A DNA stretch of 63,620 nucleotides, the filler included, from Atractiella rhizophila (lineage: Eukaryota): assembly GCA_021432655.1 (NCBI GenBank). It is 5 parts of 5 records of this genome, joined end to end, with 100 filler letters (N's around TTAATTAATTAA, not from the genome) between each part and the next. Parts side by side here need not be neighbours in the genome. Positions count along the whole stretch, not along the records: positions 1 to 15,280 come from MU271938.1; 4 more parts are not named here. One strand, 5' to 3'. How positions within the stretch are numbered: position 1 is the first letter of the stretch; every line of letters begins with the position of its first letter. Positions 1-61,248 of this stretch are shown here, in pieces. A program made the translations under genes and the position numbers. Below the pieces are notes generated by a model. That model worked only from the letters and a program-made list of their open reading frames with translations. It did no database searches and had not been told where the DNA came from.

Positions 1-42
1 TATTCAACCTTGTTCCGCAATCCAAAATCTTGTTTCGCTGAC

Positions 43-3000
43 ATGACTACAAATCCCGTCAATGTATTCAAAGTTCTTGAAAACGTGAAGAGAGCGAATC
101 CGCTGGGACTACGAATCCTCTGCATCGACAATGGAGGCGTCGGCACTTTTTCAGCTCCCTACATGCTCGAACCCATCATGCGTCAAGCCGCACATCTTCT
201 CGACGTTCCAGAGGACGAAGAGCTTCGACCTTGCGACGTCTTTGATCTCATTTGTGGGACTTCTACCGGCGGATGGATCGCACTTCTGCTGGGGAGGCTG
301 GGAATGACCGTTCGTCAGTGCATTGCAGCATATGAAGAGATTGTGAGCAAGGTCTTTCGAGACGAGGATTCAGACCCTAGCGGCGCGTTCATGTTCTCGG
401 CGGAGAAGCTCGAAGAGACTCTGATTACCATCATCCAGCGACACACGCAATCTGCCGAAGATTCTGCCAAGTCACTTCCAATGAAGGACCCTTCTCTAGA
501 GCACAGATGCAGAACCCTCGTTCTATCCGCCTATCAGGCTACTGTTGTCGTTTCTACGGAGATGCGCACTTACGATATTGGTGGATCTGGCCCTCGCATC
601 GCTTGTCCATATTCCGTGTGGGAAGCCGCAAGAGCCACCTCGGCTCATCCTCCCTTCTTTGCTCCTATGAGCAAGGACTCTACCGGCTACGTCCAGCTAT
701 GTGACAACAACCCTGCAGCAGTAGCTTTGGACGAGGCCATGCGAATTTGGGGACGCAGCAATGAGATTGCTTGTCTTTTGTCTCTTGGTCCAGGCGTTAC
801 ACGCGCCGTCAAGCCGGGCCACACTCGGGATGATGTTGAACATGCGTTGAAGGCGATACTCGCAGATTGCTCAAAGGTTTCGAAGGACGTGAAGGAGAAG
901 ATGCAAGTTGGTGGGATGGGCCATTGCTATCATCGATTCTCGGTTGATACATTCGGAGGCTTCAAATGGGAGGACTGGGAGCGAAAGGAGGATGTTGTAG
1001 GCTGCACAAAGGCTTACATGGAAGCAATGAATCATGAAGTGTTCGCCGTGGCTAAGTCGCTCGTCCAAGGTATTCTCCATGACTGCATATTGCTGCATGC
1101 TGACGTCCCCTTATTCAGAATTTAAGGAACGCATTGCAGTACGCAGGAAACTCCCGTTACCTCCTCCAGGGGCTTGTTACGGAAGAGGTGACGAAGTTAC
1201 GGACGCGCTCAACTGCATCCTCACTGACCGCAAGCATCTTGCAATCATCGGTGGGGCTGGGAATGGGAAGTCTACTGTGGCTCTACAAGTTCTGCATGCC
1301 AAGGAAGTCAAAGATGCTTTCACAAGCACAGCGAAAGGTACCAGGCAAGATCTTCGGTTCTGGGCAAGTTGCGACGCTTTGACTACATTTTCATCCCTCT
1401 CCACGAGCCTTTGCAGACAGGTCTTCGGGATAGCTCCTCTACCTACCGAAAGCGAACTTGCTGCTGTCGCAAGATATTTCAGCAGTCACAGATGTCTCCT
1501 TGTCTTAGACAATTTTGAGACCCCTGCGGAATGCGACAAGGAAAACCTGCAGCCATTCTTTCAAGCTCTTCTTTCTGGCAACAATGAGATCGGTTCCATC
1601 CTCATTGTGGCACACCGAGGTTATCAGGCCTATCGGGTGAACGTCACAGGAGGGAAGTTTCAAAGTGTGGTGATCAGCGGCCTCAGCGACCACGGTGCAC
1701 TGGAATTCTTCACGGAGGCGTACACGGGAGAAGAGGATTGTACAGAAGAGCTACTCAAGACTGTTTTCACCGCACTGGATCATCACACCTTGTCCATCAA
1801 GCTATTTGTTCTTCGTGCCAACGCAGAATCTCCTAGGAGAGTGTCGGCCCTGTTGAAGGAGTGGGAAGCGGTGAAGATAGGTGTATTGTGGGACAAAGAT
1901 AGTGACGAAACCCCAACTCTTAAGAAGTCGATATATTTTTCACTTAGTTCGCATCGTCTTAAAATGCATGAGGATATGAGCATGTTTATTCTTGCTCTCT
2001 TATCCTGGACCCCTCAAGGCCTTCTGGACAGTGACATTCGGGCTATTGTGAACAAGGCCTCTCTTCCTTCTCTGGAGCAACCTTATGTGATCATTAATGC
2101 GATTTTGTGTGTCGGACTTGCTGAGAATGCATACGATACCCTGGCAGACTCAACACGATTTCGCATGCTGGCACCTATTCGTGAACACATTAATCACTTG
2201 GTCCTGCACTCTCTTCCTCCTTTCAACAATGCTGTTGCTTCATCCCTCCAGCCCGTAACGGACGTTCTTATCGATGTAGCTCGGGAAAATGTTCGGCAGT
2301 ATAAATATGAAGGTGAACGGATAGGGTTGCTGACATTCCGCAGCGATTATCCAAACATTGAATATGTTCTTCTGGCTGCTTTGGAACATCTCCAAAACAA
2401 GACAGTTACAGTCCATTTTCTAGTGGAAATGTGGCAATTTCTCTACCAGCAGAGCCTCCTCTCAATCAAATTACTCCAGCAGGCTCTGTCCATCGCGAAA
2501 TCTATAAGTTCTCCCCTGGAATTTAAAGCTGTTTTGACCATGGCTCTGGGGCTTGCATTCAGACATCAGGGGAGTAAAAAACAGGCCATGACACAATTTG
2601 AGGAGGCGAAGAAGCTGTATCTGAAGGTGGAAGACAAGCAGGGGCAAGCTTACTGCATTCACAGCATGGGGCAGATTGAGGAGCATCACGGGCAGATAGA
2701 GGAAGCGCTGAAACGATTCGAGGAGGCAAAGGAGCTGTATCTGAAGGTGGAAGACAAGCAGGGGCAAGCCCACTGCATTCAGAGCATGGGGAAGATCGAG
2801 CAGCATCACGGGAGGATGGAGGAAGCGCTGAAACGATTTGAGGAGGCAAAGGAGCTGTATCTGAAGGTGGATGATCAGCTGGGGCAAGCCCACTGCATTT
2901 ACAGCATGGGGGAGATCGAGCAGCATCACGGGCGGATGGAGGAAGCACTGAAACGATTTGAGGAGGCGAAGGAGCTGTATCTGAAGGTGGATGATCAGCA

Positions 3001-3901
3001 GGGGCAAGCCCACTGCATTTACAGCATGGGGGAGATCGAGCAGCATCACGGGCGGATGGAGGAAGCGCTGAAACGATTCGAGGAGGCGAAGGAGCTGTAT
3101 CTGAAGGTGGAAGATCAGCTGGGGCAAGCCCACTGCATTCGGAGCATGGGGGAGATTGAGCAGCGTCATGGGCGGATGGAGGAAGCGCTGAAACGATTCG
3201 AGGAGGCGAAGGAGCTGTATCTGAAGGTGGAAGATCAGCAGGGGCAAGCCCACTGCATTCGGAGCATGGGGAAGATCGAGCAGCGTCACGGGCGGATGGA
3301 GGAAGCGCTGAAACGATTTGAGGAGGCAAAGGAGCTGTATCTGAAGGTGGAAGATCAGCTGGGGCAAGCCCACTGCATTCGGAGCATGGGGGAGATTGAG
3401 CAGCATCACGGGCGGATGGAGGAAGCGCTGAAACGATTTGAGGAGGCAAAGGAGCTGTATCTGAAGGTGGAAGATCAGCTGGGGCAAGCCCACTGCATTC
3501 AGAGCATGGGGGAGATTGAGCAGCATCGTGGGCGAATGGAGGAAGCGCTGAAACGATTCGAGGAGGCAAAGGAGCTGTATCTGAAGGTGGATGATCGGCA
3601 GGGGCAAGCCCACTGCATTCGGAGCATGGGGGAGATCGAGCAGCATCACGGGCGGATGGAGGAAGCGCTGAAACAATTCGAGAAGGCGAAGGAGCTGTAT
3701 CTAAAGGTGGAAGACCAGCAGGGGCAAGCCCACTGCATTCGGAACATGGGGAAGATCGAGCAGCGTCACGGGCGGATGGAGGAAGCGCTGAAACGATTCG
3801 AGGAGGCGAAGGAGCTGTACCTGAAGGTGGAAGACAAGCAGGGGCAACCCAACTGCTTACAGAGCATGAGGAACATTGAGCATCAAGACAGCAGGGGATG
3901 A
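43..3901 (+). CDS. Patatin-like domain - NB-ARC (STAND NTPase) - TPR NLR-type protein (PLP-1-like architecture); join(43..1069,1119..3901), ~1269 aa
   Basis: Patatin motifs LCIDNGG, FDLICGTSTGG (GxSxG) and WEAARATSA. The 49-nt GT..AG intron 1070-1118 (branch GCTGAC) joins ORF 10..1125 in frame to ORF 1034..3901. P-loop GGAGNGKS, Walker B LLVLDNFE, and C-terminal 40-aa TPR repeats. The 3' end is frameshifted. Confidence 0.92.
2639..3901 (+). repeat. Intragenic array of ten near-identical 120-bp (40-aa) TPR units plus a partial eleventh
   Basis: GGGGCAAGC recurs at exact 120-nt spacing from 2641 to 3721 (variant GGGGCAACC at 3841). Consensus QGQAHCIxSMGEIEQHHGRMEEALKRFEEAKELYLKVEDQ. Confidence 0.97.
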
Positions 3902-4352
3902 ACGAAGCGCTGAAACGATTCGACGAGGCAAAGCAGCTCAATTTGAAGTGGGACCGTCGGTGGCTACCTACGAAGCTGTCAGCAGAAAGAACCTGGCCGA
4001 ACTCCTCTTCCAATCGTCCCAGTTCCTCCGTGCGACGCAGGAAAACCAATCTCGCCCGTCAGATTTACGCAGATTGCTCTGCCAGCTCCGATGTTGATGG
4101 TTGTGACACTCTGCTGCGGACAATTCAGCTCATTGAGAGTTTTCCTGGTTAAGACGTGTCATCCAAATAGTTTTGGTACTTTCCTTTCCCTTCACCTTGT
4201 GCAAGCAGACCTCCTGGTGCAGGATGTAACATTCTGCCTGAGCAACGCTGTCATCGTTATAAAATCGATGTTTCATTATGACCTGAAATGTAGACACAAT
4301 CCTCCTGATACTCGGAAGGTTACATGCCTTTACGCGAAGTTGTGGTGGTTGC
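3860..4352 (+). pseudogene. Frameshifted C-terminal cap and 3' flank of the NLR (cap copy 1)
   Basis: Homologous to 6800-7287: YEAVSRKNLAELLFQSSQF and LARQIYADCSASSDVDGCDTLL lie in different frames here but in one frame in the second copy. Confidence 0.8.
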
Positions 4353-4384
4353 GCGCAAATAAGATTATGTTCTCATCTATCCAA

Positions 4385-4419
4385 CTACTAACAGTACTTT
4401 AGGGTTCAACCCTGCCTCT
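4385..4419. repeat. 35-bp direct repeat, left copy (contains AGGGTT-C-AACCCT palindrome)
   Basis: CTACTAACAGTACTTTAGGGTTCAACCCTGCCTCT is identical at 6465-6499. Confidence 0.9.
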
Positions 4420-4809
4420 ACTACTATTCCTTCATGACGGAACTACTATTCCTTCGCGACGGAACTGTTCCGTCAGTCAAATTTGGCTGGGGAACGGAGT
4501 TAGGGTCAGGGCCATGGTGAGTCCCGTCAGCCCAGTCGCGAGGCTCTCACTAACGGAACTAACCTGACGGGACGGAACGCACCGTTGAGTCCCGTCAGCT
4601 CGGACGCGACGGCCAAATTGTCTCGCGAGGTTGGGATCAGCCCCGACATGAACTCGCTCAACATGCGAGGTTCATCGCGAGGGCGCCAAGTTCACTACCA
4701 GTCGCGAAGTGGGCACTTCGGGTCACTGGCTGGCTGTGACGTGTGAAGTGCCTTCTAGTTGAAAGGTCAAGTTTGGTTCAGCGATGGGTTCAACCTGCGA
4801 AAGGCTGCT

Positions 4810-5290
4810 GTAGTTGAGAGGGAGCAGGCTCGCAAGAAAGCAGATGCGCGAGAGAGTAAACTCGTGAGACTGCAAACGTGAGAGAGCACACTCGCGAGAC
4901 AGCAAGCTAGCGAGACAGTAAACCAGTGAGAATGCCAACTTGTGAGACAGCAAACTAGCAAGAATGCAAACTAGCGAGACAACAAACGCGAAAGAGCAAA
5001 CTAGCGAGACAGCAAACATGCGAGACGGCCAACGCGCGAGACAGCAAAAACCTGCGAGACGGCCAACTAGCCAGAATGTGAGCTCGCGAGAATACAAACT
5101 CTGTGAGAGAGCAAACTGGCGAGATGGCCAACTAGCGAGAATGCCAACTTGCAAGCATGCCAACTCGCCAGCATGCAAACTCGCGAGACTGCAAACGTGA
5201 GAGAGCAAACTAGCGAGACTGCAAATTTGTGAGACTGCAAACTCGTGCAACTCCAAACTCGTGAGAGACCAAACGCGTGACGTGAATCCA
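4810..5290. repeat. Degenerate CpG-rich minisatellite (GCAAACTMGCGAGAC-like units, ~16-17 bp)
   Basis: Repeated gcaaactagcgagac / gcaaactcgcgagac variants; only low-complexity spurious ORFs. Confidence 0.85.
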
Positions 5291-5339
5291 AATGCAAGTT
5301 TGCAGCAGTCCTGGTTTCACAAATGCCAACAGGACTTTG

Positions 5340-6464
5340 GCAGAGCGGGACCGTCTTCGCTTCAGCACTTATGGTTTTGCTGAAGTAAGCACGAGCTTGT
5401 GAGAGTGAGACTGGCTTTGCATCTGCGCTGCCAGTTTTGCTGCAGTGAACAGGAGTTTACCAGAGCGAGCCAGGCTTTGCAGGAGCGAAGTGACTTCGTC
5501 CAAGCAAGTCTGGCTGCACCCCAGCGAACTGCACTTCTCTTGAGCAAGCCAAGGTGCACTGGAGCGAGCCAGGCTTCGCAGGAGCAAACTGCACTTCGCC
5601 GGAGCGAGCCAGACTTCGCTGAAGCGAACTGGTTTCGCCGAAGCAAGCCTGACTTTGCTGCAGCGAACTGCACTTCACCCGAGTGAGTCTGCCTTCGAAG
5701 GAGCGAGCCTGGGCTTGCTGGAGCGAACTGACTTCGTCCTAGCGAGCCTGCCTTCGCTGGAGCGAGCCAGACTTCGCAGGAGCGAACTGACTTCGTCCTA
5801 GTGAGCCTGCCTTCGCTGGAGCGAGTCAGACTTCGCAGGAGCGAACTGTGCTTCGCTGGAGCGAGTCAGGCTTCGCAGGAGCGAACTTACTTCATCCTAG
5901 CGAGCCTGCCTTCGCTGGAGCGAACTTACTTCATCCTAGTGAGCCTGCCTTCGCTGGAGCGAACAGCACTTCGCTGGAGCGAACTTACTTCATCCTAGCG
6001 AGCCTGGCTTCGCTAGAGCGAACAGCACTTCGCTGGAGCGAGTCAGACTTCGCAGGAGCGAACTGTGCTTCGCTGCTGAAGCGAGTCAGGCTTCACAGGA
6101 ACGAACTTACTTCATCCTAGCGAGCCTGCCTTCGCTGGAGCGAGCCAGACTTTGCTGAAGCGAACTGGCTTCGCCCAAGCAAGTTTGACTTTGCTCCAGC
6201 GAACTGCACTTCGCTCGAGCGAGCCAGGCTTCGCTGGAGCGAACTTACTTCATCCTAGCGAGCCTGCCTTTGCTGGAGCGAACAGCACTTCGCTGGAGCG
6301 AGCCAGACTTTGCAGGAGTGAACGGACTTCGTCCTAGCGAGCCTGACTTCGCTAGAGCGAACAGCACTTCGCTGGAGTGAGCCAGACTTCGCAGGAGCGA
6401 ACTGACTTCGTCCTAGCGAGCCAGACTTCGTTAGAGCGAACTGACTTCATCCTAGCGAGCCTGC
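5340..6464. repeat. Degenerate CpG-rich minisatellite (GAGCGARC...CTTCGC units, ~20 bp, with higher-order blocks)
   Basis: Dozens of gagcgagccagacttcgc / gagcgaactgacttcgtcctagcgagcctgccttcgctg variants. Confidence 0.9.
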
Positions 6465-6480
6465 CTACTAACAGTACTTT

Positions 6481-6645
6481 AGGGTTCAACCCTGCCTCTT
6501 TCAGGAATGAAATCCAGGCTGAATCCTTGCCTCCTGGGCACCTAGGGTACAACCCTGCCTCTGTCAGGAACAGGATCCTGGCTGGATCCTTGCCTCCTGG
6601 CTGCCTAGGGTACAACTCTACCTCTATCAAGAACAAGATCCTGGC
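6481..6645. repeat. 63-bp tandem repeat (about 2.6 units, runs into a gap)
   Basis: Units start AGGGT(T/A)CAAC at 6481, 6544 and 6607. Confidence 0.85.
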
Positions 6646-6670
6646 NNNNNNNNNNNNNNNNNNNNNNNNN

Positions 6671-7143
6671 AGCAGGGGCAAGCCCACTGCATTCGGAGCA
6701 TGGGGGAGATCGAGCAGCATCACGGGCGGATGGAGGAAGCACTGAAACGATTCGAGGAGGCAAAGGAGCTGTATCTGAAGGTGGAAGATGTCGGAGGTCA
6801 ACTCATCTGTCTTACCGGCATGAGTTCCGTTTATGCTCAAGACCGGCAGGGCATGTCGGAGGCGATCAAGCTTTGCGAGCAAGCAGTCAATTTGAGTAAG
6901 ACAGTCAGTGGCTACTACGAAGCTGTCAGCAGAAAAGCCCTGGCTAAATGCCTCTTCCAATCGTCCCAGTTCCGCCGTGCGTCAGAGGAAACCACTCTCG
7001 CCCATCAGATTTATGCAGATTGTTCTGCCAGCTCCGAAGTTGATGATTGTGACACTCTACTGCAGGTAATTCAGCTCATTGAGAGTTTGCAAAAGTTGTC
7101 GAAATCGTTTTGTACTTTCCCTTCTCTCCTCTTTGTAAGCTGA
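6671..7143 (+). CDS. 3' part of a second NLR copy: one TPR unit plus an intact C-terminal cap (5' end lost in gap 6646-6670)
   Basis: TPR unit essentially identical to those of the first gene, followed in frame by EDVGGQLICLTG...YEAVSRKALAKCLFQSSQF...CDTLLQVIQLIESL. Confidence 0.75.
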
Positions 7144-7300
7144 CCTCCCAGTGCAGGATGTAATACTTGCCTAAGCAACACTTTTATCCATCATAAAATC
7201 GATGCTTTGATTACAATCTGAAATGTAAACACGATCCTCCTGATCTAGAAGGTTATATGCCTTTTACAAAAGGTTGTAGTGGTCGTGCTTTCATGAGACG

Positions 7301-9015
7301 CGATCCCTAGGGTTAGCGTTCAAGCTACAGGGGGATCTCCAACAGGCACTAAAGCATCTTGAGGATGCTAAGGAGCTCTATCACCAGGTGGAAGATCAGC
7401 GGGGTGAAGCCCATTCCATTTGTGGCATAGGGGAGATTGAGCAATATCAGAGGAGAAATAAGGAAGCACTCATGCAGTTCGAGAAAGTGAAGCAGCTGTA
7501 CGTGAAGATAGGAGATAGGCTAGGGGAGGCACACTGCTTCCGCAGCGTGGCAGAGATCAGCAACCATTGTATACAGAAGGAGGAAGCTTCGAAACAGTTT
7601 GAGGTAGCAAAACAGATGTATCTGAATGTGAAAGATCGACTAGGCCTGGCCCACTGCACCTTCAGCATTGGGGTGATTGAATGGTTTCGTGGGCAGATTA
7701 GTGAAGCGCTGGAACATTTTAAGGAGGCAAAAGAGCTGTATCTGAAGGTAGAGAACAGACATGGGCAAGCCACTTGCAATCACAAATTGGGGGAGATTAA
7801 GCGGCTGCATGGGTGGAATAAGGAAGTACTGAAACTTTGGGAGGAGGCAAGGCAGCTGTATGAGGAGGCGAAGGAGCAGGATGGCCAAGCACACTGCATT
7901 CACAGCATAGGGAATGTAAAGTTTCAGCGTGGAGGGAATGAGGAAGCGCTGAAACATTTCAAAGCAGCAAACTCTCTCTATGTGTGGCTGGGAGATTGGC
8001 AAGGACAAGCCCACTGTACTTATGGCATCGTGGAGATCGAGGCATTGCATGGGCAGAGTAAGGAAGCACGGAAACACCTTGGGCAGGCCAAGGAGCTTTA
8101 TTTATTGGCAGATGATTAACTTGGTGTTTCTCATTCAATTCATCGCGTGGCGATGGTGAATCTGCTTTGTGGGCAGAATGAGAAAGCGCAGAAATGGTTC
8201 GAGGAGGCAAAGGATCACTATGTAAAATTGGAAGATCAACAGCGCCAAGCCCACTGTATTCGTGATATAGAGAGGATCAAGCTGCTTTATGAGCAGAATG
8301 AGGAAGCTTTGTTACAGTTTGAGGAGGCAAAGCGACTGTATCTGTGTGAGGAAGATAAGCAAGGTCTACCCAGCTGCCTTCAGTTCATAGAGGAGATTGA
8401 GCTGATTTACCGGTGTAACGAGGATGCGCTACAACATTTCGAGGAAGCAAATGTCAGGATGGCTATAGACCAACAGCTAACCAACTGAACTAAAAGAGCT
8501 AATGATGGGTGTTTACACCCATCTTGGTCTGTACTTAAGGTATATCAGGGGCTCGAACCCTGACAGCAAAGGGGTTCCATCTTCAGACAGAAGATCCGCG
8601 TGGTCAAGCCACTTGCATTCAAGGTATAGGGAAGATCAAGCAGCTTTATGCACAGACTGAGGAAGTACTGAAAAACTTTCAGGAGGCAAGGGAGCTTTTT
8701 GTAGTGGCTGAAGATCTGGGAGGTCAACTCAGCTACCTTATGAACATAGGTCAAGTTTATGCTCAAGACTGCCAGATTTCCAAGGTGATTGAGGTTTGTG
8801 AGGTAGCCGTGATTTTGAGCCGTGCAGTAGGTGGCCACAATGAAGCTCGTAGCAGGAAGTCTCTTGTCCTAGCTCTCTTCCTATCATCTCAGCACTCTGG
8901 TGCTAGAGAGGAGTTTATTCTTGCGCATCAATGCTTCGCTGATTGTTTGATATATTCCAAAGTACATGATTGTGATGATTGGCTTCACAGGATTGATCAG
9001 GTGGGCTTCCAATAG
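7301..9015 (+). pseudogene. Headless, diverged TPR array plus cap (third module), pseudogenised
   Basis: Starts SLGLAFKLQGDLQQALKHLEDAKELY, homologous to the NLR's first TPR ALGLAFRHQGSKKQAMTQFEEAKKLY. It has 40-aa TPR units, an in-frame TAA at 8117-8119 and a solo-LTR insertion, and ends in cap EDLGGQLSYL...HDCDDWLHRID. Confidence 0.85.
8452..8565. mobile_element. 114-bp solo LTR-like insertion with 5-bp TSD
   Basis: Ends TGTCAGG...CCTGACA, flanked by GCAAA at 8447-8451 and 8566-8570. Removing 119 bp restores the TPR frame (EEAKGFHLQTEDPRGQATCIQGIG). Confidence 0.85.
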
Positions 9016-9493
9016 TTTAGTATATGTCCTTTCACACCACCTTATGCTCGCTAACATCGTTTAGGAGAATGTAAGCAATGCTGTCATCTGGACTGGATGT
9101 CTGGTTCATCTTGCCTTTTGAGGATCTGTTACCTGCTCCTCGGCACTTTGCCATTTCAAGGAGTTTTTGACAAAATATATGTTTGTATGCTCGGCATTGC
9201 TAAAACAACAAATACCTTGCACCAAACAATTCTGAAATCATTTTATAGCCTCTACTATTATTCCTCTGTAATGGCACTGTTCTATCAGTCCAGCACTGCA
9301 ACCAGTACAGTATATGGGTATGGCCGTAAAAATACTGGCAGTATCCACCATTTCCAATGCGGTAGGCATATGGACAACCTTATAGCGTCAGCTCAGTCTC
9401 TTAATACTGGTGGCGTATATGTGGTAATGGAATATCATATTTCAAGCTTCCGAGAACCCACCCAAATTACCATTTCTTTGGCTTTCTTGCACC

Positions 9494-9613
9494 TTACATC
9501 AGCCATGCCTTTGACATCATGGTTTCAGCAAGGATGGATGCAGACATTGAGCCCCTCTGATGGGTATTGATGTTTTTGGCCCATGAAAAAAGATGTTCAA
9601 CATCAGCTGTTGA
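9494..9613 (-). pseudogene. hAT transposase C-terminal dimerisation-domain relic
   Basis: Minus strand reads STADVEHLFSWAKNINTHQRGSMSASILAETMMSKAW, resembling the hAT S..VERLFS...R..L...W motif. It abuts the Harbinger left TIR. Confidence 0.6.
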
Positions 9614-9617
9614 ATTA

Positions 9618-12477
9618 GGGTGTCAGGTTTGCAACTTACACAAACTGGCGCCCGTTCGCTGGATTGCGTCTCTTATCGCCCATTTGCGTTCTCTGCAAAT
9701 CGGTGTCGTTCACATTCTATGCGAATCGACGCCCCGTTGCCACTCTGCGCCCCGTTGCCTGTTCGCCCATTTGTACTCACATCAATACTTAGCCCAATTG
9801 TGTCTATTCTCCTCTTATTAACCTGCGTAATCCCTCTGTCACTTTCCCCTTTTAGTTCTCTTACATGTTTCACCTGCTCTTCTCTACACTCTGTGGCAGT
9901 GTTATTCCGCTTGTATATAGATTGAAGAGTAGTGGAGGCGACCTTTGAGTATTCTCTTAGGTTTATCTACACTACAGATGCATCATCCATCGGTGACCAT
10001 ACATAGTGTCAGCCCTAACGTACGGATAGCAAGAAGATCATGGGCGATGAGTCTTAAAATCGGATAAGTGCCTTTGTGGCAAAGGGCTTTATAAGAATCT
10101 GAGGGAAGTCAATTGAGGACACACCTTCCACCATTGAACGGGATCGTGGGTTGTGAGATATTTGATACATCTAACAATCACTGCTCTGACAAGCATGAAC
10201 CGATGTGAATCGTGGTGATTGCAGCGGAAGATGATATGAAGACATGGGAGTGGGCCTATTTAAAAACTCACTTTTTCTTGGATTCCACTTTTTTTTGGAT
10301 CACATTTTTAAGTTCCGATCAGATCTGAGCGGCTGAAAATACAGTTAGAAAAAGATTAACTCGAGTTCACAAGCTCGAAACCAAAAAAGTGAAAAGTGAT
10401 GGTGGAATGAAGGACCTCAGGTTTGGGGGTCAGATTGATCACTTTTCAAGTTGTCATTCGGGAAAACCACAGTGCTCCGATCCTGTTATATGGTGGTCGG
10501 TGGTACAGACCACCGTCGCTTGCATAACCATTTTTGCACTTTTTGAAGGATCCTCTCCAATGCACCCTGTTTATGCAGTTATGTCATAGGCCTTGCTGAT
10601 TCTGTCAACTATATGTCTGGAGGAGGCTGACGACCTTGAAGACAATTTTGACACTGCTTACACATCAATAGCCATTTCCTCCAATTTCCGCATTTTACAA
10701 TGGCAAGCGATTGATTTTGGGGCTCAATATGGTCCCAGAGGGCCGTATGATGTCCCAAAATCAATTGACATTTATCCCATACACCTGAATCATGCCAGAG
10801 AAAGGTATCTTCAAAGTTTTTATTGGTAGGCTTCTCTCAATTTTTTCTTCTCTTCAATTTATGGAAAGGGGCATAGAATGGGGAAGCCCACTTTCCATTT
10901 TATCTGTCACCTACTAGCCCTCACCACACCTTTCCAGCCAAAGGGGACTGGCCAACCACAAGCTGCTGTTGATGTTCAGTTTGCAACATACCTTTGGTTC
11001 TTTGGTAGCTCATCACATAACTGTCATTTTGATGCTGCTAGAGACACATCTATTGCTGTAGAGTCTGTCCACAATCATATACTTCGGGTCATCTCTGGTT
11101 TGCAAGAAATGGAACTTCGATTTCTTAAATGGCCATCAGCTGCTCACCACGAAGTTATTATGAAGGGATTTGGTCTTTCCGGTTACATTGGAGCTGTTGA
11201 TGGGTCTCTCATTCCACTCTCATTTGTTCCTAAGGAGCGAGCCTTCTGGTATTGGTGCGAGAAGAAACATTACGGAGTATGTACTACTTCTTCGTTGTAT
11301 CGTAGTACTCATTTCATCCAGATTGTTCTTCAAGCAGTTTGTGACCATGACATGTGATATATCAGTTATGAGACTGGGTGGGGGCATCACAGAACGATGT
11401 GTTTGTATGGAACAACTTGGATGTTTGGCTAACCAGCAAAAGTGCTTCAGACTGAGTGAATTCCTTCTAGGAGATAAAGGTATGCCCATTGTTTACTTTA
11501 TTATATTACTATGGCTTCATTCCGTCTTGACTCAGGATATCCTTTATCTCCTTATTGTATCCGGCCATTTTCAGCACCCGAGTTTTCGCCACTGCCAGCC
11601 CAAAAAGCATCCCAGGTGGACATAAGGCTCATTCCTCAGCTCGTGTTATTATTGAAAATGCATTTGGTGTATTGAAAGGTTAGCTTTTCTTCTTCCTTGC
11701 AACTTTGATACTCTAATGTTAGCAACAAGGTCGTTTTCCTGCTCTTTATGGAATGACCAGGGATTACATGCATGACATATATGCCAGTGTTGTTTCAATG
11801 ATGATTGTGTACAACATCTGTTTGGATATGGGGGACAAGGTAGAAGATCTAGCAGAATATTACTTGCTATCATCCAAAGCACAGGGGGAGCTAGATGTGA
11901 GGTGAAGGGAACTGGCTGAATCAAGGGCTGCTGAATGTTGTGATGAGGATGGAGCTGACAACCAAGAGGATGCATGGAATGGGATTGCTGATGATGTGAG
12001 TATACGAATGCTCCAAAATGGGAAGAGGAGACGAGATACAGTGCTGAAGGACCTCTTTACTCGGGGTTAACATGATAATCTATTATTTTAGCTCCATTGC
12101 AGAAGAGAATACTTTCAGTTGTCACCCATTTCCAAGTCAAGATCCGATCTATATATACAAGCGGAATAACACTGCCACAGAGTGTAGAGGAGAGCAGATA
12201 TATAAGAGAACTAAAAAGGGGAAGTGACAGTGGGATTACACAGAGTTAACAAATGGGCTAAGTGGTGATGCAGGTGCAAATGGGCTAACGGGCGACTGGG
12301 CGCTGATTTGCACTGCATGCTAATAGGCAATGGGAGACACAGAGTGGCAACGGTTCGCAGATTTGTATAGAACGCAAACGGGCGAACAGGCGCTGATTCG
12401 TGGGGAACGCAAATGGGCGATAGGAGACGCAATCCGGCGAACGGGCGCCGATTTGCATAAGATGCAAACCTGACACC
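9618..12477. mobile_element. PIF/Harbinger-like DNA transposon with long imperfect TIRs (9618-9922 / 12147-12477)
   Basis: GGTGTCAGGTTTGCA... versus ...TGCAAACCTGACACC; the inverted homology continues about 300 bp. TTA precedes the left end; the right TSD is not clean. Confidence 0.85.
10560..12070 (+). pseudogene. HARBI1/DDE_Tnp_4-type transposase pseudogene
   Basis: GYIGAVDGSLIP, KKHYG, LQAVCDH, LLGDKG and HSSARVIIENAFGVLK motifs, with introns and in-frame stops. Confidence 0.85.
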
Positions 12478-13431
12478 ACCCATAATTTCTCCTCTGAGTT
12501 CATGCAAGAGAAGCTACATAAGCGACATGACATTCCCAAAACCAAGCGGCAATATGTGAGAAAACAAATGGCACATCTAGCAATAAACCCCTCTGGGAAG
12601 CCGAGTGGATGAGCTCTTGGGGAGGTACTGTGGCTGCGTTGGCTAAGAGGTAGGGAAGCTTCGCTGTGACTCAATGTAAGTGTGTTTGACGCAGCCAAAA
12701 AACAGAGGCCGGAAAATGAGAGTTTTTGGATGCTTGTACGTTGGCTGAGTGCAGTTTTCACTTGTTTGGCATGGTACAGAGCCTCGTGGCTGACCATGAG
12801 GCAACTTTAAAAAGTGAAAGTGCCATCCAGAAAAGTGACGGAGTTTTTGAACAGTCCTACTAGGTGGGAGTGTGGTGAGAATTAGCAAATTAAGGTGAAC
12901 AAGGGAGTTGTACGTAGGGCCTGGGCCTGAGATGGCATCGTAGAAGCTAAGAATGTGTTTGCAAGACTTCTTGAGCTCATAGAATGTCTGGAATGCTTGG
13001 GATGGAAAGCGGACCACTCACTGACCATCCAGCCCTGCCTGCTTCCAGCCTATTCCAGCCATTTTACCTGTCAGAACCGTCTTCAGAAGGATGTTGGCAG
13101 CAGACAGATGGGATTCTGCCATCCATTTTCCCCGTCCATCTCAGGAGTTGAAAGTCTGCAACGGTGATGGGACAGTTGGCTACAAAAGCTGTCTGCCCTG
13201 GACCCATCAGCCGTCTTGACAGTGACGGTGCAAAGCCTTATATAGCTTGCAGCAGTGGCAACTAGAAAGCAGTAGAACATTCCAGAAAACTAAGGAACTT
13301 TGCCGCGAGTGGCACGAAACTAGACTGCAAAATCTGACAGTTTCATTGGCCAATGCGCTTACTTCTTCGTGGACGCCGTTCAAACGTGTTTTTACCGTCG
13401 CAATCTCACTCTCAGACGTACACTGTGAGCT

Positions 13432-13532
13432 GGATCCCAGCGAAGTGTGAGATGGTGGAAAAACTGCTCATGGAATGCAATGGAAAAACGTTCTTGGATC
13501 CCAGTGAAGTGTGAGATGGTGGAAAAACACTG
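13432..13532. repeat. ~35-bp imperfect direct repeat, two copies
   Basis: GGATCCCAGYGAAGTGTGAGATGGTGGAAAAAC at about 13432 and 13496. Confidence 0.7.
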
Positions 13533-14133
13533 GTCACATGCTAGTCACGTGACTGTGGCTCAGGATGTGCGACGTGGGCTGAGAGACAACGAGCATCCAG
13601 CTCTCACACACACATGATGAGGAAGTTCATGAAAAGATAACGGTGGTGCAATTGTTCCTCTCAACAGATACCCCTTGCAACACTGGCCAAGGATACTGCA
13701 GTTCTTGCATGCCCTCCTTTGGAGCACTTTACAGACATACGGTTTGTCTATCTTATTCTGTCGCTGCTATGAGCAGAGATTGATTTAAGATTGCGAGGAC
13801 GCAGGCTTCCTCGTAACCATCGTCTACTGGGTCATACTCTCTGACAACTCTTGGTTTCAGTCATAGAGAAAGAGTGCAAAGTACCCTCGATGTCTCGATG
13901 TGACTACATTTTCAATCCACCATTTCGAGTGAATTCGGTACCCTACAAAGGGACGAATCGTTTCTCAGTTCGTGACTTCAAGGTGGCCGGTACATACCCT
14001 CGATTGTATACATGATGGTGGTGATGGATCATTCTCCGTTCCACAGCTGGTCGTGGACGTTTAGTGAGTACTGGGAACAACCGTCAACGGACTGTCGATA
14101 GTCGCGAATGAAATGAAATAGGAAGACTGACCA

Positions 14134-15174
14134 CTACTCTTTGATCTCGTTGAGCACACGGATGACCTTTTCTCCCATCTCTCTCACCATCTTCCTCTCT
14201 TCCTCTATCCTCTCCTCCTCTATCCTCCTCCTCTCCCCGTCCTCCTTTCCCTCAGCTCCGTCCATCTCCTCATCGACGTCTTCATCCTCCTGTCTCCCAT
14301 CTCCCTCTTCCTTCCTTTGATGCTCCTCCATGACTACGACAGAGTGACTCGCATGCGTGCTGGAGAGAGAGGGAGCGCCGATGCGAGCTACGATGCGTGC
14401 AAATCGATCAGGATGATAAGTCCTCCTGGCCTCTCTCAAGACACGCTTCCTCTCCTCCTTCTCCAGTCCATGAAACAGAAAGTGGGACATGTTGACTCGT
14501 GTGAGCGAGGAGAGGGTGGGGGGAAGAGAGAAGGTGATAGGCCACGGCACGTCTTCCGGAAGTAAGGGCTTTGGTGAAGTCGAAGTCGAAGGCACCAGTA
14601 GAGAAGCCCAAGATGCGGCATAGGAAGCTCTCTCCTTCTTCAAATCGTCAAACATCTCCTCCATCTCCTCCCTCCTCCTCTCCTCCTCTCTCTTCCTCTT
14701 CCTCTCCTCCCTCGCCCCCCTCTCCTTCCTCTCCCTCTCCTCCCTCTCCTCCTCCAAAACCCTCCTCCTCCTCGCCTCCTCCTCCCTAACCCTCCACCGC
14801 TCCTCCATCCTCCTCCTCCTCTCCCTCTCCCCCTTCCCTCCCCTCCCTCCCAACTCAACCTCCAAAAGCCCCTCGACAAACCGCCTCCTCTCACTCTCCT
14901 CGTAAAACATCTCCTCCAACATACCCTCCTCCGCCTCTCCTTCCACCATCTCCTCTTCTCTCTCCCGTTGGTTCACCTCGAATGATGCAGGGAGGGACAA
15001 ATCGTGCCCTCGTGCAGCGGAGAACGCGTGCGGGCCGCGGGGGACGAAGGTGTAGGAGTGGGTGTTGGAGTGGTTTGCACGTGCACGGCGATGTGAGGAT
15101 GAGGACGAGGATGAGGCGGCGGGAGCTTTCTTCATTCGAAGACGCCCGGGACGAGGGAGGGAGTCAGCGTCCAT
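14134..15174 (-). CDS. Charged coiled-coil protein with NFKBIL1-like C-terminal domain
   Basis: 346-aa ORF; E/R-rich region followed by W...VPWP...FL...LREARRTYHPDRF. Confidence 0.65.
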   Translation of the reverse strand: MDADSLPRPGRLRMKKAPAASSSSSSSHRRARANHSNTHSYTFVPRGPHAFSAARGHDLSLPASFEVNQREREEEMVEGEAEEGMLEEMFYEESERRRFVEGLLEVELGGRGGKGERERRRRMEERWRVREEEARRRRVLEEEREERERKERGAREERKRKREEERRREEMEEMFDDLKKERASYAASWASLLVPSTSTSPKPLLPEDVPWPITFSLPPTLSSLTRVNMSHFLFHGLEKEERKRVLREARRTYHPDRFARIVARIGAPSLSSTHASHSVVVMEEHQRKEEGDGRQEDEDVDEEMDGAEGKEDGERRRIEEERIEEERKMVREMGEKVIRVLNEIKE

Positions 15175-15280
15175 TATTGTTGTTTCCGGTTCCGTTCTAG
15201 TGGCCCGTTGCTGGTAAGTAACTGGTGGCTGAAGCGTAGATGAAGCACGTGAAGCGGTGGCGAGTGCGGCTAGATCGGGA

Positions 15281-15380
15281 NNNNNNNNNNNNNNNNNNNN
15301 NNNNNNNNNNNNNNNNNNNNNNNNTTAATTAATTAANNNNNNNNNNNNNNNNNNNNNNNNNNNNNNNNNNNNNNNNNNNN
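15281..15380. other. Artificial scaffold linker
   Basis: N run + TTAATTAATTAA (stops in all six frames) + N run, 100 nt. Confidence 0.97.
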
Positions 15381-30601: not shown

Positions 30602-30701
30602 NNNNNNNNNNNNNNNNNNNNNNNNNNNNNNNNNNNNNNNNNNNNTTAATTAATTAANNNNNNNNNNNNNNNNNNNNNNNNNNNNNNNNNNNNNNNNNNN
30701 N
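30602..30701. other. Artificial scaffold linker
   Basis: N-TTAATTAATTAA-N, 100 nt. Confidence 0.97.
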
Positions 30702-45906: not shown

Positions 45907-46006
45907 NNNNNNNNNNNNNNNNNNNNNNNNNNNNNNNNNNNNNNNNNNNNTTAATTAATTAANNNNNNNNNNNNNNNNNNNNNNNNNNNNNNNNNNNNNN
46001 NNNNNN
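45907..46006. other. Artificial scaffold linker
   Basis: N-TTAATTAATTAA-N, 100 nt. Confidence 0.97.
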
Positions 46007-61148: not shown

Positions 61149-61248
61149 NNNNNNNNNNNNNNNNNNNNNNNNNNNNNNNNNNNNNNNNNNNNTTAATTAA
61201 TTAANNNNNNNNNNNNNNNNNNNNNNNNNNNNNNNNNNNNNNNNNNNN
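61149..61248. other. Artificial scaffold linker
   Basis: N-TTAATTAATTAA-N, 100 nt. Confidence 0.97.

What the first reader, a model, noticed from the sequence alone, without database searches (positions are those of the whole stretch)
2540..9015. One NLR head followed by a tandem series of headless 'TPR array + cap' modules: possible receptor-domain cassette reservoir
Seen: only one patatin-NB-ARC head is present, but three homologous C-terminal caps occur in the same orientation (about 3860-4150, 6790-7143, 8715-9015), each preceded by 40-aa TPR units. Module 3 starts exactly at the first TPR (SLGLAFKLQG matches ALGLAFRHQG at 2540). That point is only a few bases after the 3'-flank homology between modules 1 and 2 ends (~7287), so the break coincides with the sensor-domain boundary. 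Known: fungal NLR repeat domains diversify by repeat shuffling and concerted evolution (Podospora HNWD het-d/het-e family). Inference: these may be silent donor cassettes that supply new TPR units or whole sensor domains to the expressed gene by gene conversion or unequal crossover. The alternatives are an NLR graveyard or partial mis-scaffolding; module 2 follows a 25-N gap, so its head could be hidden.
Basis: partly seen in the sequence, partly recalled or inferred. Interest (0 to 1): 0.8.

Follow-up and report, generated by a model that had tools for sequence, protein, structure and literature searches.

The report
Fungal NLR gene with leftover sensor-domain copies
A fungal immune-receptor-type (NLR) gene is followed by two partial copies of its repeat "sensor" end; one is cut by an assembly gap and the other is a recently disabled relic, so this looks like ordinary NLR gene turnover rather than a proven store of spare parts.

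Summary
The window has one patatin-NOD head, three same-strand C-terminal "caps", a 25-N gap before module 2, and a module 3 that starts at the first TPR unit about 20 nt after the shared 3' flank ends.

- The window is a chain of small scaffolds. This locus sits on a 15.3-kb repeat-rich piece.
- Gene 1's own cap is broken by at least three frame changes, while cap 2 is intact.
- Module 3 carries an in-frame TAA and a 119-nt insertion that a contig from public runs lacks.

Module 2's single TPR unit is 114/118 identical to gene 1 units, against 78-81% for cap and flank. That is repeat homogenisation between two paralogous arrays, as in the Podospora NWD family. Its head status cannot be decided because the contig starts inside the array.

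Module 3 is truly headless. It belongs to an older paralog with units only 46-69% alike. It shares no exact tract longer than 17 nt with gene 1, and it kept its reading frame until recently (1 stop against about 21 expected).

Verdict: an NLR birth-and-death cluster, a new member of a known kind. The donor-cassette idea is not supported for module 3 and untestable here for module 2.

The parts
43..1069 (+). Gene 1 exon 1: putative ATG and patatin-like phospholipase domain (GTSTG serine motif).
   Evidence: Pfam Patatin 6e-14. Spliced model has 1269 aa and no internal stop. The window starts only 42 nt upstream, probably at the scaffold edge.
1070..1118 (+). 49-nt GT..AG intron joining the patatin frame to the NOD frame.
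   Evidence: Frames overlap. The spliced product reads ...SLVQEFKERIAVRRKLPLPPP, matching P0004 and P0005. Inferred, no RNA.
1119..2542 (+). NOD (STAND NTPase with Walker A GGAGNGKS and Walker B-like LLVLDNFE) plus the linker to the repeats.
   Evidence: Pfam NACHT 27.0 bits (cut-off 26.7); NB-ARC 16.2 bits (below 23.5). 38-42% identity to three Atractiella rhizophila proteins. Motifs located.
2543..3862 (+). Gene 1 TPR array: 11 units of 120 nt. Units 2-10 are 89-97% identical in nt (high internal conservation); GC3 of units 2-11 is 0.74.
   Evidence: TRF period 120, 11.2 copies, 92% matches. Unit list, identity matrix, GC3.
3863..4152 (+). Cap 1: a degenerate copy of the C-terminal cap. Gene 1's frame ends at TGA 3899-3901. 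At least 3 frame changes are needed to read it like cap 2. 3896-3948 looks like a regular TPR unit (81-89% nt to array units).
   Evidence: Alignment to module 2, frame scan, blastn. A contig in run X1 lacks the extra base at 4042.
4153..4349 (+). 3' flank of module 1, homologous to 7144-7283.
   Evidence: blastn 77.8-80.6%. 137 aligned nt, 26 mismatches, 6 gap events.
4385..6645 (.). Repeat block between modules 1 and 2. It holds a 35-nt exact direct repeat (4385-4419 = 6465-6499), a high-copy element at about 4420-4760, satellites at 4847-6461 (periods 16-181 nt), and a 63-nt tandem repeat at 6480-6645 that runs into the gap.
   Evidence: TRF, blastn. Many contigs with unlike flanks and loose ends at 4442, 6465 and 6645.
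6646..6670 (.). 25-N scaffold gap. The left contig ends in the satellite; the right contig starts inside a TPR unit.
   Evidence: The loose end at 6645 continues the satellite.
6671..6816 (+). Module 2 TPR part: the end of one unit plus the last unit. 6671-6788 is 114/118 identical to gene 1 units, with a 69-nt exact tract.
   Evidence: alignment; GC3 0.725.
6789..7143 (+). Cap 2: intact open frame to the stop at 7141-7143. Predicted all-helical, TPR-like.
   Evidence: ORF. AF2 pLDDT 80.3. Best PDB matches are TPR domains but weak, E 0.02 or worse. Short tree branch of 0.14 against 0.56 for cap 1.
7144..7283 (+). 3' flank of module 2. Homology to module 1's flank ends here.
   Evidence: No significant similarity beyond it (P = 0.09).
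7304..8742 (+). Module 3 TPR array: 11 units of 120 nt, 46-69% identical to each other. In-frame TAA at 8117-8119. No in-frame ATG before about 7472. No head upstream, on contiguous sequence.
   Evidence: 1 stop against 20.9 +/- 4.4 expected under neutral drift.
8446..8570 (.). 119-nt frame-breaking insertion in unit 10 of module 3: a 113-nt element (8452-8564) between 6-nt direct repeats AGCAAA. Absent from one contig in each of runs X1 and X2.
   Evidence: Joint 8445->8565 skipping 119 nt, side 136, ambiguity 6. Sequence. No other copy in the window.
8743..9015 (+). Cap 3, open to the stop at 9013-9015. 52.7% aa identity to cap 2.

Best explanation
This is a birth-and-death cluster of a lineage-restricted fungal NLR family. 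The family architecture is patatin, a NACHT/NB-ARC-type NOD, a TPR_12 array and a TPR-like C-terminal cap. The cluster lies on a small, repeat-rich, gapped scaffold of an Atractiella-like basidiomycete.

Gene 1 (43-3901) is a complete head with a highly internally conserved 11-unit TPR array. In this assembly its own cap is frameshifted.

Module 2 is the last TPR unit, intact cap and 3' flank of gene 1's sister paralog. Its contig starts inside the array just after a scaffold gap. Its head may lie in the gap, may lie on another contig (false join), or may be missing.

Gene 1's array and module 2's array belong to one homogenised pool of units. This is shown by the sequence. The mechanism (unequal crossover or ectopic conversion, as in the Podospora NWD family) is inferred.

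Module 3 is a truly headless, full-length sensor domain (11 units plus cap) of an older paralog that is no longer homogenised. It stayed open for most of its history, so it was probably part of a working NLR until recently. It is now disabled by loss of the head, a stop codon and a polymorphic small insertion. It shows no sign of feeding sequence to gene 1.
For: - Domains.
- Single head, three caps.
- Window built from concatenated scaffolds, with this piece spanning 1-15280 and carrying a 25-N gap.
- Cap 1 frameshifts against an intact cap 2.
- In the cap tree, cap1 and cap2 are sisters (96/93). Cap 2's branch is short (0.14) and cap 1's is long (0.56). Cap 3 falls with A. rhizophila caps (87/86, weak).
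- Module 2's unit is 114/118 identical to gene 1 units with a 69-nt exact tract. Cap and flank are 78-81% identical with a 23-nt longest tract.
- Module 3 units are 46-69% alike, and the longest exact tract shared with gene 1 is 17 nt.
- Module 3 has 1 stop against 20.9 +/- 4.4 simulated (0 of 5000 runs with 1 or fewer). It has no indel in 1590 nt apart from the insertion. The non-coding flank shows 6 gap events in 137 nt.
- One contig in each of runs X1 and X2 lacks the 119-nt insertion.
- In A. rhizophila, 0 of 8 cap-bearing protein models have a NOD or patatin. Six of the 8 start at the conserved M inside a TPR unit. One NOD-bearing model (P0006) is labelled partial and ends inside its array. 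This is the pattern expected when such arrays break assemblies.
- Literature, passages read: short-read assemblies of highly conserved NLR repeats are unreliable (PMC12222747). Podospora pseudogene and headless NWD members and inter-locus repeat exchange are described (PMC1805685, PMC13449251, PMC4986451).
Against: - No long reads, no whole genome and no RNA were available. The content of the gap and the join between the two contigs are therefore untested.
- Module 3's 5' end falls within about 7 codons of the NOD/TPR boundary and about 20 nt from the end of the shared flank. A random deletion does not predict that. A tandem duplication of the sensor segment would.
- Module 3's long open frame could reflect present function rather than recent death.
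- Zero of 8 heads among A. rhizophila cap-bearing models could be biology rather than an assembly or annotation artefact.
- One contig in run X1 joins a module-2-like stretch (6742-6914, 22 differences) to a cap-1-like stretch (3968-4067, 2 differences). It could be a mosaic rather than a further paralog or allele.
- The neutral simulation uses gene 1's consensus unit as a stand-in ancestor.
Confidence: 0.55

Rival explanations
1. Modules 2 and 3 are silent, headless donor cassettes kept because they supply TPR units or whole sensor domains to the single expressed head by gene conversion or unequal crossover.
For: - One head and three same-strand sensor ends.
- Module 2's unit is 97% identical to gene 1 units with a 69-nt exact tract, which is enough for homologous exchange. 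A crossover between the two direct arrays would fuse the head to the intact cap 2.
- Module 3 begins at the first TPR unit and has kept an almost open frame.
- A mosaic-looking contig exists in run X1.
Against: - Module 3 is 47-74% identical to gene 1 units, with a longest exact tract of 17 nt (not above what that identity gives) and background GC3. It also has a stop and an insertion.
- Module 2's headlessness is unproven because of the gap.
- Gene 1 itself has a broken cap.
- Exchange between paralog arrays occurs in Podospora without any cassette function being needed (PMC1805685).
Confidence: 0.12
2. Tandem duplication of the sensor segment. A unit running from the first TPR to the end of the 3' flank was duplicated head-to-tail behind one head, first giving module 3, then modules 1 and 2 by unequal crossover between units. 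All downstream modules are truly headless by-products with no selected role.
For: - The junction of flank end (7283) to first TPR (7304) is exactly what a tandem duplication of such a unit creates.
- The module 1/2 flank homology stops at that same point.
- Gene 1 and module 3 both have 11 units.
Against: - After flank 1 (4349) there is no trace of a first TPR unit, only repeats (P = 0.09).
- Cap 3 does not group with caps 1 and 2 but, weakly, with A. rhizophila caps.
- No flank homology was found after cap 3.
- Module 3's open frame would need explaining if it has been headless since an old duplication.
Confidence: 0.15
3. Assembly chimera. Module 2 (intact cap) is the true 3' end of gene 1's array, or contig 6671-15280 belongs elsewhere. 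It was joined to contig 1-6645 only because read pairs from gene 1's array map onto the near-identical unit at its start.
For: - The contig starts inside a unit that is 97% identical to gene 1 units.
- A 25-N gap occurs twice in the window beside a 256-N one, so it looks like a minimal value.
- The left contig ends in high-copy satellite.
- Cap 2 is conserved while cap 1 is degenerate.
- Short-read assemblies create or omit such repeats (PMC12222747).
Against: - The module 2 unit is not identical to any gene 1 unit (best 114/118).
- Contig 1-6645 reads without N from the array into cap 1. A contig in each run matches 4043-4410 exactly.
Confidence: 0.1
4. Stand-alone TPR-plus-cap proteins. Headless modules such as module 3 are, in some haplotypes, expressed genes encoding sensor-only proteins, for example modulators or decoys of the full NLRs.
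For: - 1 stop against about 21 expected, and no indels in 1590 nt.
- A copy without the 119-nt insertion exists.
- Eight A. rhizophila gene models consist of TPR units plus cap without a head.
Against: - There is no in-frame ATG before the second unit. The TAA at 8117 lies in a contig that matches the assembly exactly (X2, 8019-8339).
- The A. rhizophila models mostly start at the first M inside a unit, which is typical of truncated predictions.
- No expression data.
Confidence: 0.06

Closest known systems
Podospora anserina NWD/HNWD family (het-d, het-e, het-r, nwd genes and pseudogenes NWDp1-3)
   Same: - STAND/NLR genes whose repeat units are highly alike within a gene.
- Units are more alike between paralogs than the rest of the genes are, explained by concerted evolution within and between loci.
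- The family includes pseudogenes and one member without a start codon or head (NWDp-3).
- Pseudogene arrays can stay open.
Source: PMC1805685, PMC13449251 and PMC4986451, passages read.
   Different: - TPR (120-nt) units rather than WD40 units.
- Patatin rather than HET effector.
- A basidiomycete related to Atractiella rather than a sordariomycete.
- The pieces lie in tandem on one strand.
- The headless module here is not homogenised with the active array, unlike NWDp1 and NWDp2.
- RIP was not tested here.
Patatin-NB-ARC-TPR fungal NLR architecture (Dyrka et al. 2014)
   Same: Patatin effector, NOD and TPR repeats in that order. 21.2% of TPR-type fungal NLR repeat domains show high internal conservation (PMC4986451, passages read).
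   Different: - The NOD here scores just above the Pfam NACHT cut-off and below the NB-ARC cut-off.
- The family ends in a cap found only in Atractiella rhizophila proteins among the named hits. It gave 7 hits at E <= 1e-3 in 1.84 billion representatives, 2 of them generic TPR proteins.
Silent-cassette antigenic variation systems (pilE/pilS, vlsE, VSG); recalled from general knowledge, no call
   Same: One complete gene with truncated, promoterless partial copies nearby that could recombine into it.
   Different: - No evidence of directed or frequent conversion.
- The only proven headless copy is too diverged and is itself broken.
- The complete gene has a damaged 3' end.
Plant NLR clusters with truncated and pseudogene paralogs; recalled from general knowledge, no call
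   Same: Tandem clusters evolving by birth and death, with unequal crossover and fragments left beside intact genes.
   Different: Different kingdom, different repeat type and different effector. No plant-like paired or integrated-decoy arrangement is seen.

Membership tests
Fungal NLR (STAND NTPase with effector, NOD and repeats) | N-terminal effector domain | tested here: met
   Pfam Patatin 6e-14, 53.1 bits, cut-off 27.7.
Fungal NLR (STAND NTPase with effector, NOD and repeats) | Central NACHT or NB-ARC P-loop NTPase | tested here: met
   NACHT 27.0 bits against a cut-off of 26.7, so marginal. NB-ARC 16.2 bits against 23.5, not met. GGAGNGKS and LLVLDNFE motifs are present. Relatives carry NACHT or NB-ARC Pfam hits.
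Fungal NLR (STAND NTPase with effector, NOD and repeats) | C-terminal superstructure-forming repeats (TPR, WD40 or ANK) | tested here: met
   TPR_12 7.1e-76, 10 stretches.
NLR with highly internally conserved repeats (Dyrka 2014: over 85% identity over at least 100 aa) | Units of one gene over 85% identical | tested here: met
   Gene 1 units 2-10 are 89-97% identical in nt. The units listed vary at 15 of 40 aa columns. Not met for module 3 (46-69% nt).
Concerted evolution between paralog arrays (Podospora NWD type) | Repeat units of two paralogs much more alike than their non-repeat parts | tested here: met
   Gene 1 and module 2: 114/118 (96.6%) in the unit against 77.8-80.6% in cap and flank. 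Only one unit of module 2 is assembled. Not met for module 3.
Silent donor-cassette system | Cassettes lack the expression or head part | tested here: inconclusive
   Module 3: met, on contiguous sequence from cap 2's flank. Module 2: unknown, because it starts at a gap.
Silent donor-cassette system | Cassettes share tracts identical enough with the expressed copy to recombine | tested here: inconclusive
   Module 2: yes, a 69-nt exact tract. Module 3: no, 17 nt at most and 47-74% identity.
Silent donor-cassette system | Mosaic expressed variants with tracts traceable to cassettes | not testable with these tools
   Only short contigs of one sample were available. One mosaic-looking contig cannot be told from a further paralog or allele.
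Silent donor-cassette system | The expressed copy is intact | tested here: not met
   Gene 1's frame ends at 3899-3901 and cap 1 needs at least 3 frame changes. A contig lacking one of the extra bases exists, so the state may differ between copies or haplotypes.

The most novel reading that the evidence does not exclude
Behind one NLR head lies a same-strand stack of sensor-domain modules. Because gene 1's array and module 2's array share near-identical units, a single unequal crossover would delete cap 1 and the repeats and fuse the head to a hybrid array with the intact cap 2. The locus could then switch or repair its sensor end by recombination. Headless TPR-plus-cap modules, also seen as 8 gene models in Atractiella rhizophila, would be a real, recurrent source of sensor variation in this lineage.
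Probability: 0.12. Interest if true: 0.7.

Novelty: new member of a known kind. Interest (0 to 1): 0.3.

Why it matters
If the plain reading is right, this is a further example of known fungal NLR dynamics: highly conserved repeats, exchange between paralog arrays, and pseudogene fragments. It appears in a little-studied basidiomycete lineage (Atractiella-like) and with TPR rather than WD40 repeats.

It is also a warning. "Headless" repeat-plus-cap models in short-read fungal genomes mostly mark places where the assembly broke inside the array.

If the bold reading were right, it would give a testable case of whole sensor-domain swapping at an immune-receptor-like locus in fungi.

Tried and rejected
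- Whole genome of the window: not held. Copies of cap, unit and head could therefore not be counted genome-wide.
- Cluster-member look-up: switched off.
- RNA: no RNA holder listed for 6671-9300. Nothing can be said about expression.
- Read laying: only short contigs from two runs of one sample, which may be the source sample.
  - Depth was not used as copy number.
  - No listed piece spans the gap.
  - Many short-sided joints (25-30 nt) inside the arrays and satellites were ignored as paralog or repeat noise. They include one in X2 linking 3532 to 8314 with 20 letters between, in unit phase.
- Neighbouring ORFs between 9055 and 15279: 0 of 8 have a Pfam family at E <= 0.01. At E <= 10 there was only noise. 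My recalled guess of a Harbinger-type transposase at 10830-11625 is not supported.
- tRNA or SINE origin of the 119-nt insertion: ARAGORN found 0 genes in the window. Rfam gave only mir-48 at E 0.14, far below its gathering score.
- Reading the 119-nt insertion or the cap 1 shifts as introns: no GT..AG choice restores the frame (by eye).
- A remnant of a first TPR unit after flank 1: local alignment is not above shuffles (P = 0.09).
The single-protein query matched 171 patterns, none confirmed.
- Fold search of unit plus cap 2: no match at E <= 0.001. The best matches are TPR domains at E 0.02-0.05, so this is only a weak statement that the cap is TPR-like.
- Literature search for 'Atractiella' plus 'NLR': 1 paper, unrelated (listing only).

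Full report
WHAT THE WINDOW IS

N runs of 44 + TTAATTAATTAA + 44 occur at 15281, 30602, 45907 and 61149. These are spacers between separate scaffolds of about 15.3, 15.2, 15.2 and 15.1 kb. The finding therefore lies on one small scaffold (1-15280), which has a 25-N gap at 6646-6670. A second 25-N gap and a 256-N gap occur on other pieces. No whole genome is held.

- ORF listing and Pfam show a patatin domain (6e-14), a NOD (NACHT 27.0 bits against cut-off 26.7; NB-ARC below cut-off) and TPR_12 (7e-76).
- A 49-nt GT..AG intron (1070-1118) joins the two frames into a 1269-aa product from ATG 43 to TGA 3899-3901 (inferred, no RNA).
- The array is 11 units of exactly 120 nt at 2543-3862.
- tblastn of patatin, NOD, array and caps against the whole window finds one head and three caps, all on the + strand.
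- Cap 2 plus flank aligns to cap 1 plus flank at 77.8-80.6% nt, up to 4349/7283.
- Cap 3 is 52.7% aa identical to cap 2.
- Module 3 starts at 7304 with the counterpart of gene 1's first unit. That pairing is 65% nt, against 55-62% to gene 1's other ten units.

1. Cap 1 is broken. Relative to cap 2 it has a 1-nt loss near 3888, a 6-nt gain and three 1-nt gains. Gene 1's frame stops 12 codons into the cap, and three frame changes are needed to read the rest. 3896-3948 resembles a regular TPR unit (81-89% nt).
2. Cap 2 is an intact frame. In a tree of 10 caps, cap 1 and cap 2 are sisters (96/93). Cap 2 has a branch of 0.14 and cap 1 a branch of 0.56. Cap 2 therefore looks like the constrained copy.
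3. Module 3 has an in-frame TAA (8117-8119) and a 119-nt frame-breaking insertion. The insertion is a 113-nt element at 8452-8564 between AGCAAA repeats. There is no in-frame ATG before the second unit.

RELATEDNESS OF THE REPEAT UNITS

- Gene 1 units 2-10 are 89-97% identical in nt.
- Module 2's 118 nt of TPR sequence is 114/118 identical to gene 1 units, with a 69-nt exact tract. Cap and flank share at most 23 nt exactly.
- GC3 is 0.74 in gene 1's conserved units and 0.725 in module 2's unit. It is 0.49 in the NOD, 0.53 in cap 2 and 0.54 in module 3's units.
- The sharp jump in identity at the unit/cap border, together with the shared GC3 rise, fits ongoing homogenisation of the two arrays. 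GC-biased conversion is my inference.
- Module 3's units are 46-69% identical to each other and 47-74% to gene 1's units. The longest exact tract shared with gene 1 is 17 nt, which is not remarkable at that identity.
- I see no exchange between module 3 and gene 1.

MODULE 3 DIED RECENTLY, OR STILL WORKS IN SOME COPIES

- With the insertion removed, its 1590 nt have 1 stop and no indel.
- A simulation mutated a stand-in ancestor (gene 1's first unit plus consensus units) to the observed 32.5% divergence with the observed substitution spectrum. It gave 20.9 +/- 4.4 stops, and 0 of 5000 runs had 1 or fewer.
- The non-coding flanks of modules 1 and 2 show 6 gap events in 137 aligned nt.
- Most of module 3's divergence therefore arose under selection for an open frame.

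PUBLIC READS

- Two runs of one sample hold 67-68% of the sampled words. No RNA holder is listed.
- Their contigs are short.
- In each run one contig skips 8446-8564 (side 136 nt, 5-6 other letters). A copy or haplotype of module 3 without the insertion therefore exists.
- Several contigs with unlike flanks end in the element, which suggests it is repeated in the genome.
- One X1 contig joins a module-2-like stretch (6742-6914, 22 differences) to a cap-1-like stretch (3968-4067, 2 differences, lacking the extra base at 4042). This is a further cap copy or allele without at least that frameshift.
- Contigs matching 4043-4410 and 8019-8339 exactly support the assembly at those places.
- The loose end at 6645 continues the 63-nt satellite.
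- The sample may be the assembly's own source, so this is not independent confirmation.

RELATIVES

- The NOD's best matches are three Atractiella rhizophila proteins (38-42% identity). After them come Mycena NLR-like proteins at 23-29%.
- The cap is very rare. Seven proteins reach E <= 1e-3 among 1.84 billion representatives, and two of them are generic TPR proteins.
- With the word-index searches, eight cap-bearing proteins are known. The seven that carry a source name are all A. rhizophila.
- None of the 8 has a NOD or patatin Pfam hit at E <= 1e-5.
- Six of the 8 start at the conserved M inside a TPR unit. Three have the same 58 residues before the cap.
- One NOD-bearing relative is labelled partial and ends inside its array.
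- I read this as assemblies and gene calls breaking inside such arrays, the same situation as module 2. Real headless genes are not excluded. I could not fetch the DNA of those loci.

THE CAP ITSELF

An AlphaFold2 model of one unit plus cap 2 is all-helical (pLDDT 80.3). The nearest solved folds are TPR domains, but weakly (E 0.02 or worse). It is probably a degenerate terminal TPR pair with capping helices.

SURROUNDINGS

- 4385-6645 holds high-copy elements and satellites.
- A 35-nt exact repeat brackets 4420-6464.
- 9619-9919 and 12152-12477 are inverted repeats (74% identical) around ORFs without Pfam matches.
- No tRNA and no Rfam family was found.

INTERPRETATION

- Shown: the anatomy, the broken cap 1, the intact cap 2, homogenised units in gene 1 and module 2, a diverged and disabled but long-open module 3, and a polymorphic insertion.
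- Inferred: an NLR birth-and-death cluster, with module 2's head unknown because of the gap, and module 3 a recent relic.
- The literature describes the same features in Podospora: highly conserved repeats exchanged within and between loci, pseudogene arrays kept open, and a member lacking its head (PMC1805685, PMC4986451, PMC13449251; passages read).
- It also warns that short-read assemblies of such arrays omit or create repeats (PMC12222747; passages read).
- The cassette-reservoir idea remains possible for module 2, since a crossover between the two arrays would give the head an intact cap. It is not supported for module 3.
- The position of module 3's 5' end at the domain border, next to the end of the shared flank, is the one feature my reading leaves to chance. 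A tandem duplication of the sensor segment would explain it, but I found no trace of it after flank 1.
- No supplements were consulted.

Noticed in passing
window 15281-15380, 30602-30701, 45907-46006, 61149-61248: N44 + TTAATTAATTAA + N44 spacers. The window is a chain of separate scaffolds of about 15.3 to 15.1 kb in falling size order, so neighbours across these points are not linked in the genome.
   Followed up: partly
window 8446-8570: A 113-nt element with short terminal inverted ends (GTCAGG / CCTGAC) and a 6-nt target duplication AGCAAA, inserted in module 3. It is absent from one contig in each of two runs. Several contigs with different flanks end in it, so it is probably a small mobile element (MITE- or SINE-like). 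No tRNA or Rfam match.
   Followed up: partly
window 4385-6645: About 2.2 kb of nested satellites (periods 16, 20, 39, 59, 79, 99, 181 nt, and a 63-nt unit at 6480-6645) plus a very high-copy element at about 4420-4760. The block 4420-6464 is bracketed by a 35-nt exact direct repeat (4385-4419 = 6465-6499).
   Followed up: partly
window 9619-9919 and 12152-12477: Inverted repeat of about 300 nt at 74% identity around ORFs without Pfam matches. The left arm lies in the most heavily covered part of the laid stretch. Possibly a DNA transposon with long terminal inverted repeats.
   Followed up: no
window 2663-3862 and 6673-6792: [quoted passage not shown] This fits GC-biased gene conversion in homogenised repeat arrays.
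   Followed up: partly
Atractiella rhizophila proteins P0001, P0002, P0003, P0028, P0029, P0030, P0033, P0034: All eight cap-bearing protein models found lack a NOD head. P0002 and P0033 come from contigs of the same length (81,016), possibly one contig with two caps. P0001 and P0002 are fused to unrelated C-terminal parts (Methyltransf_32 in P0002), which suggests gene-model problems at these loci.
   Followed up: partly
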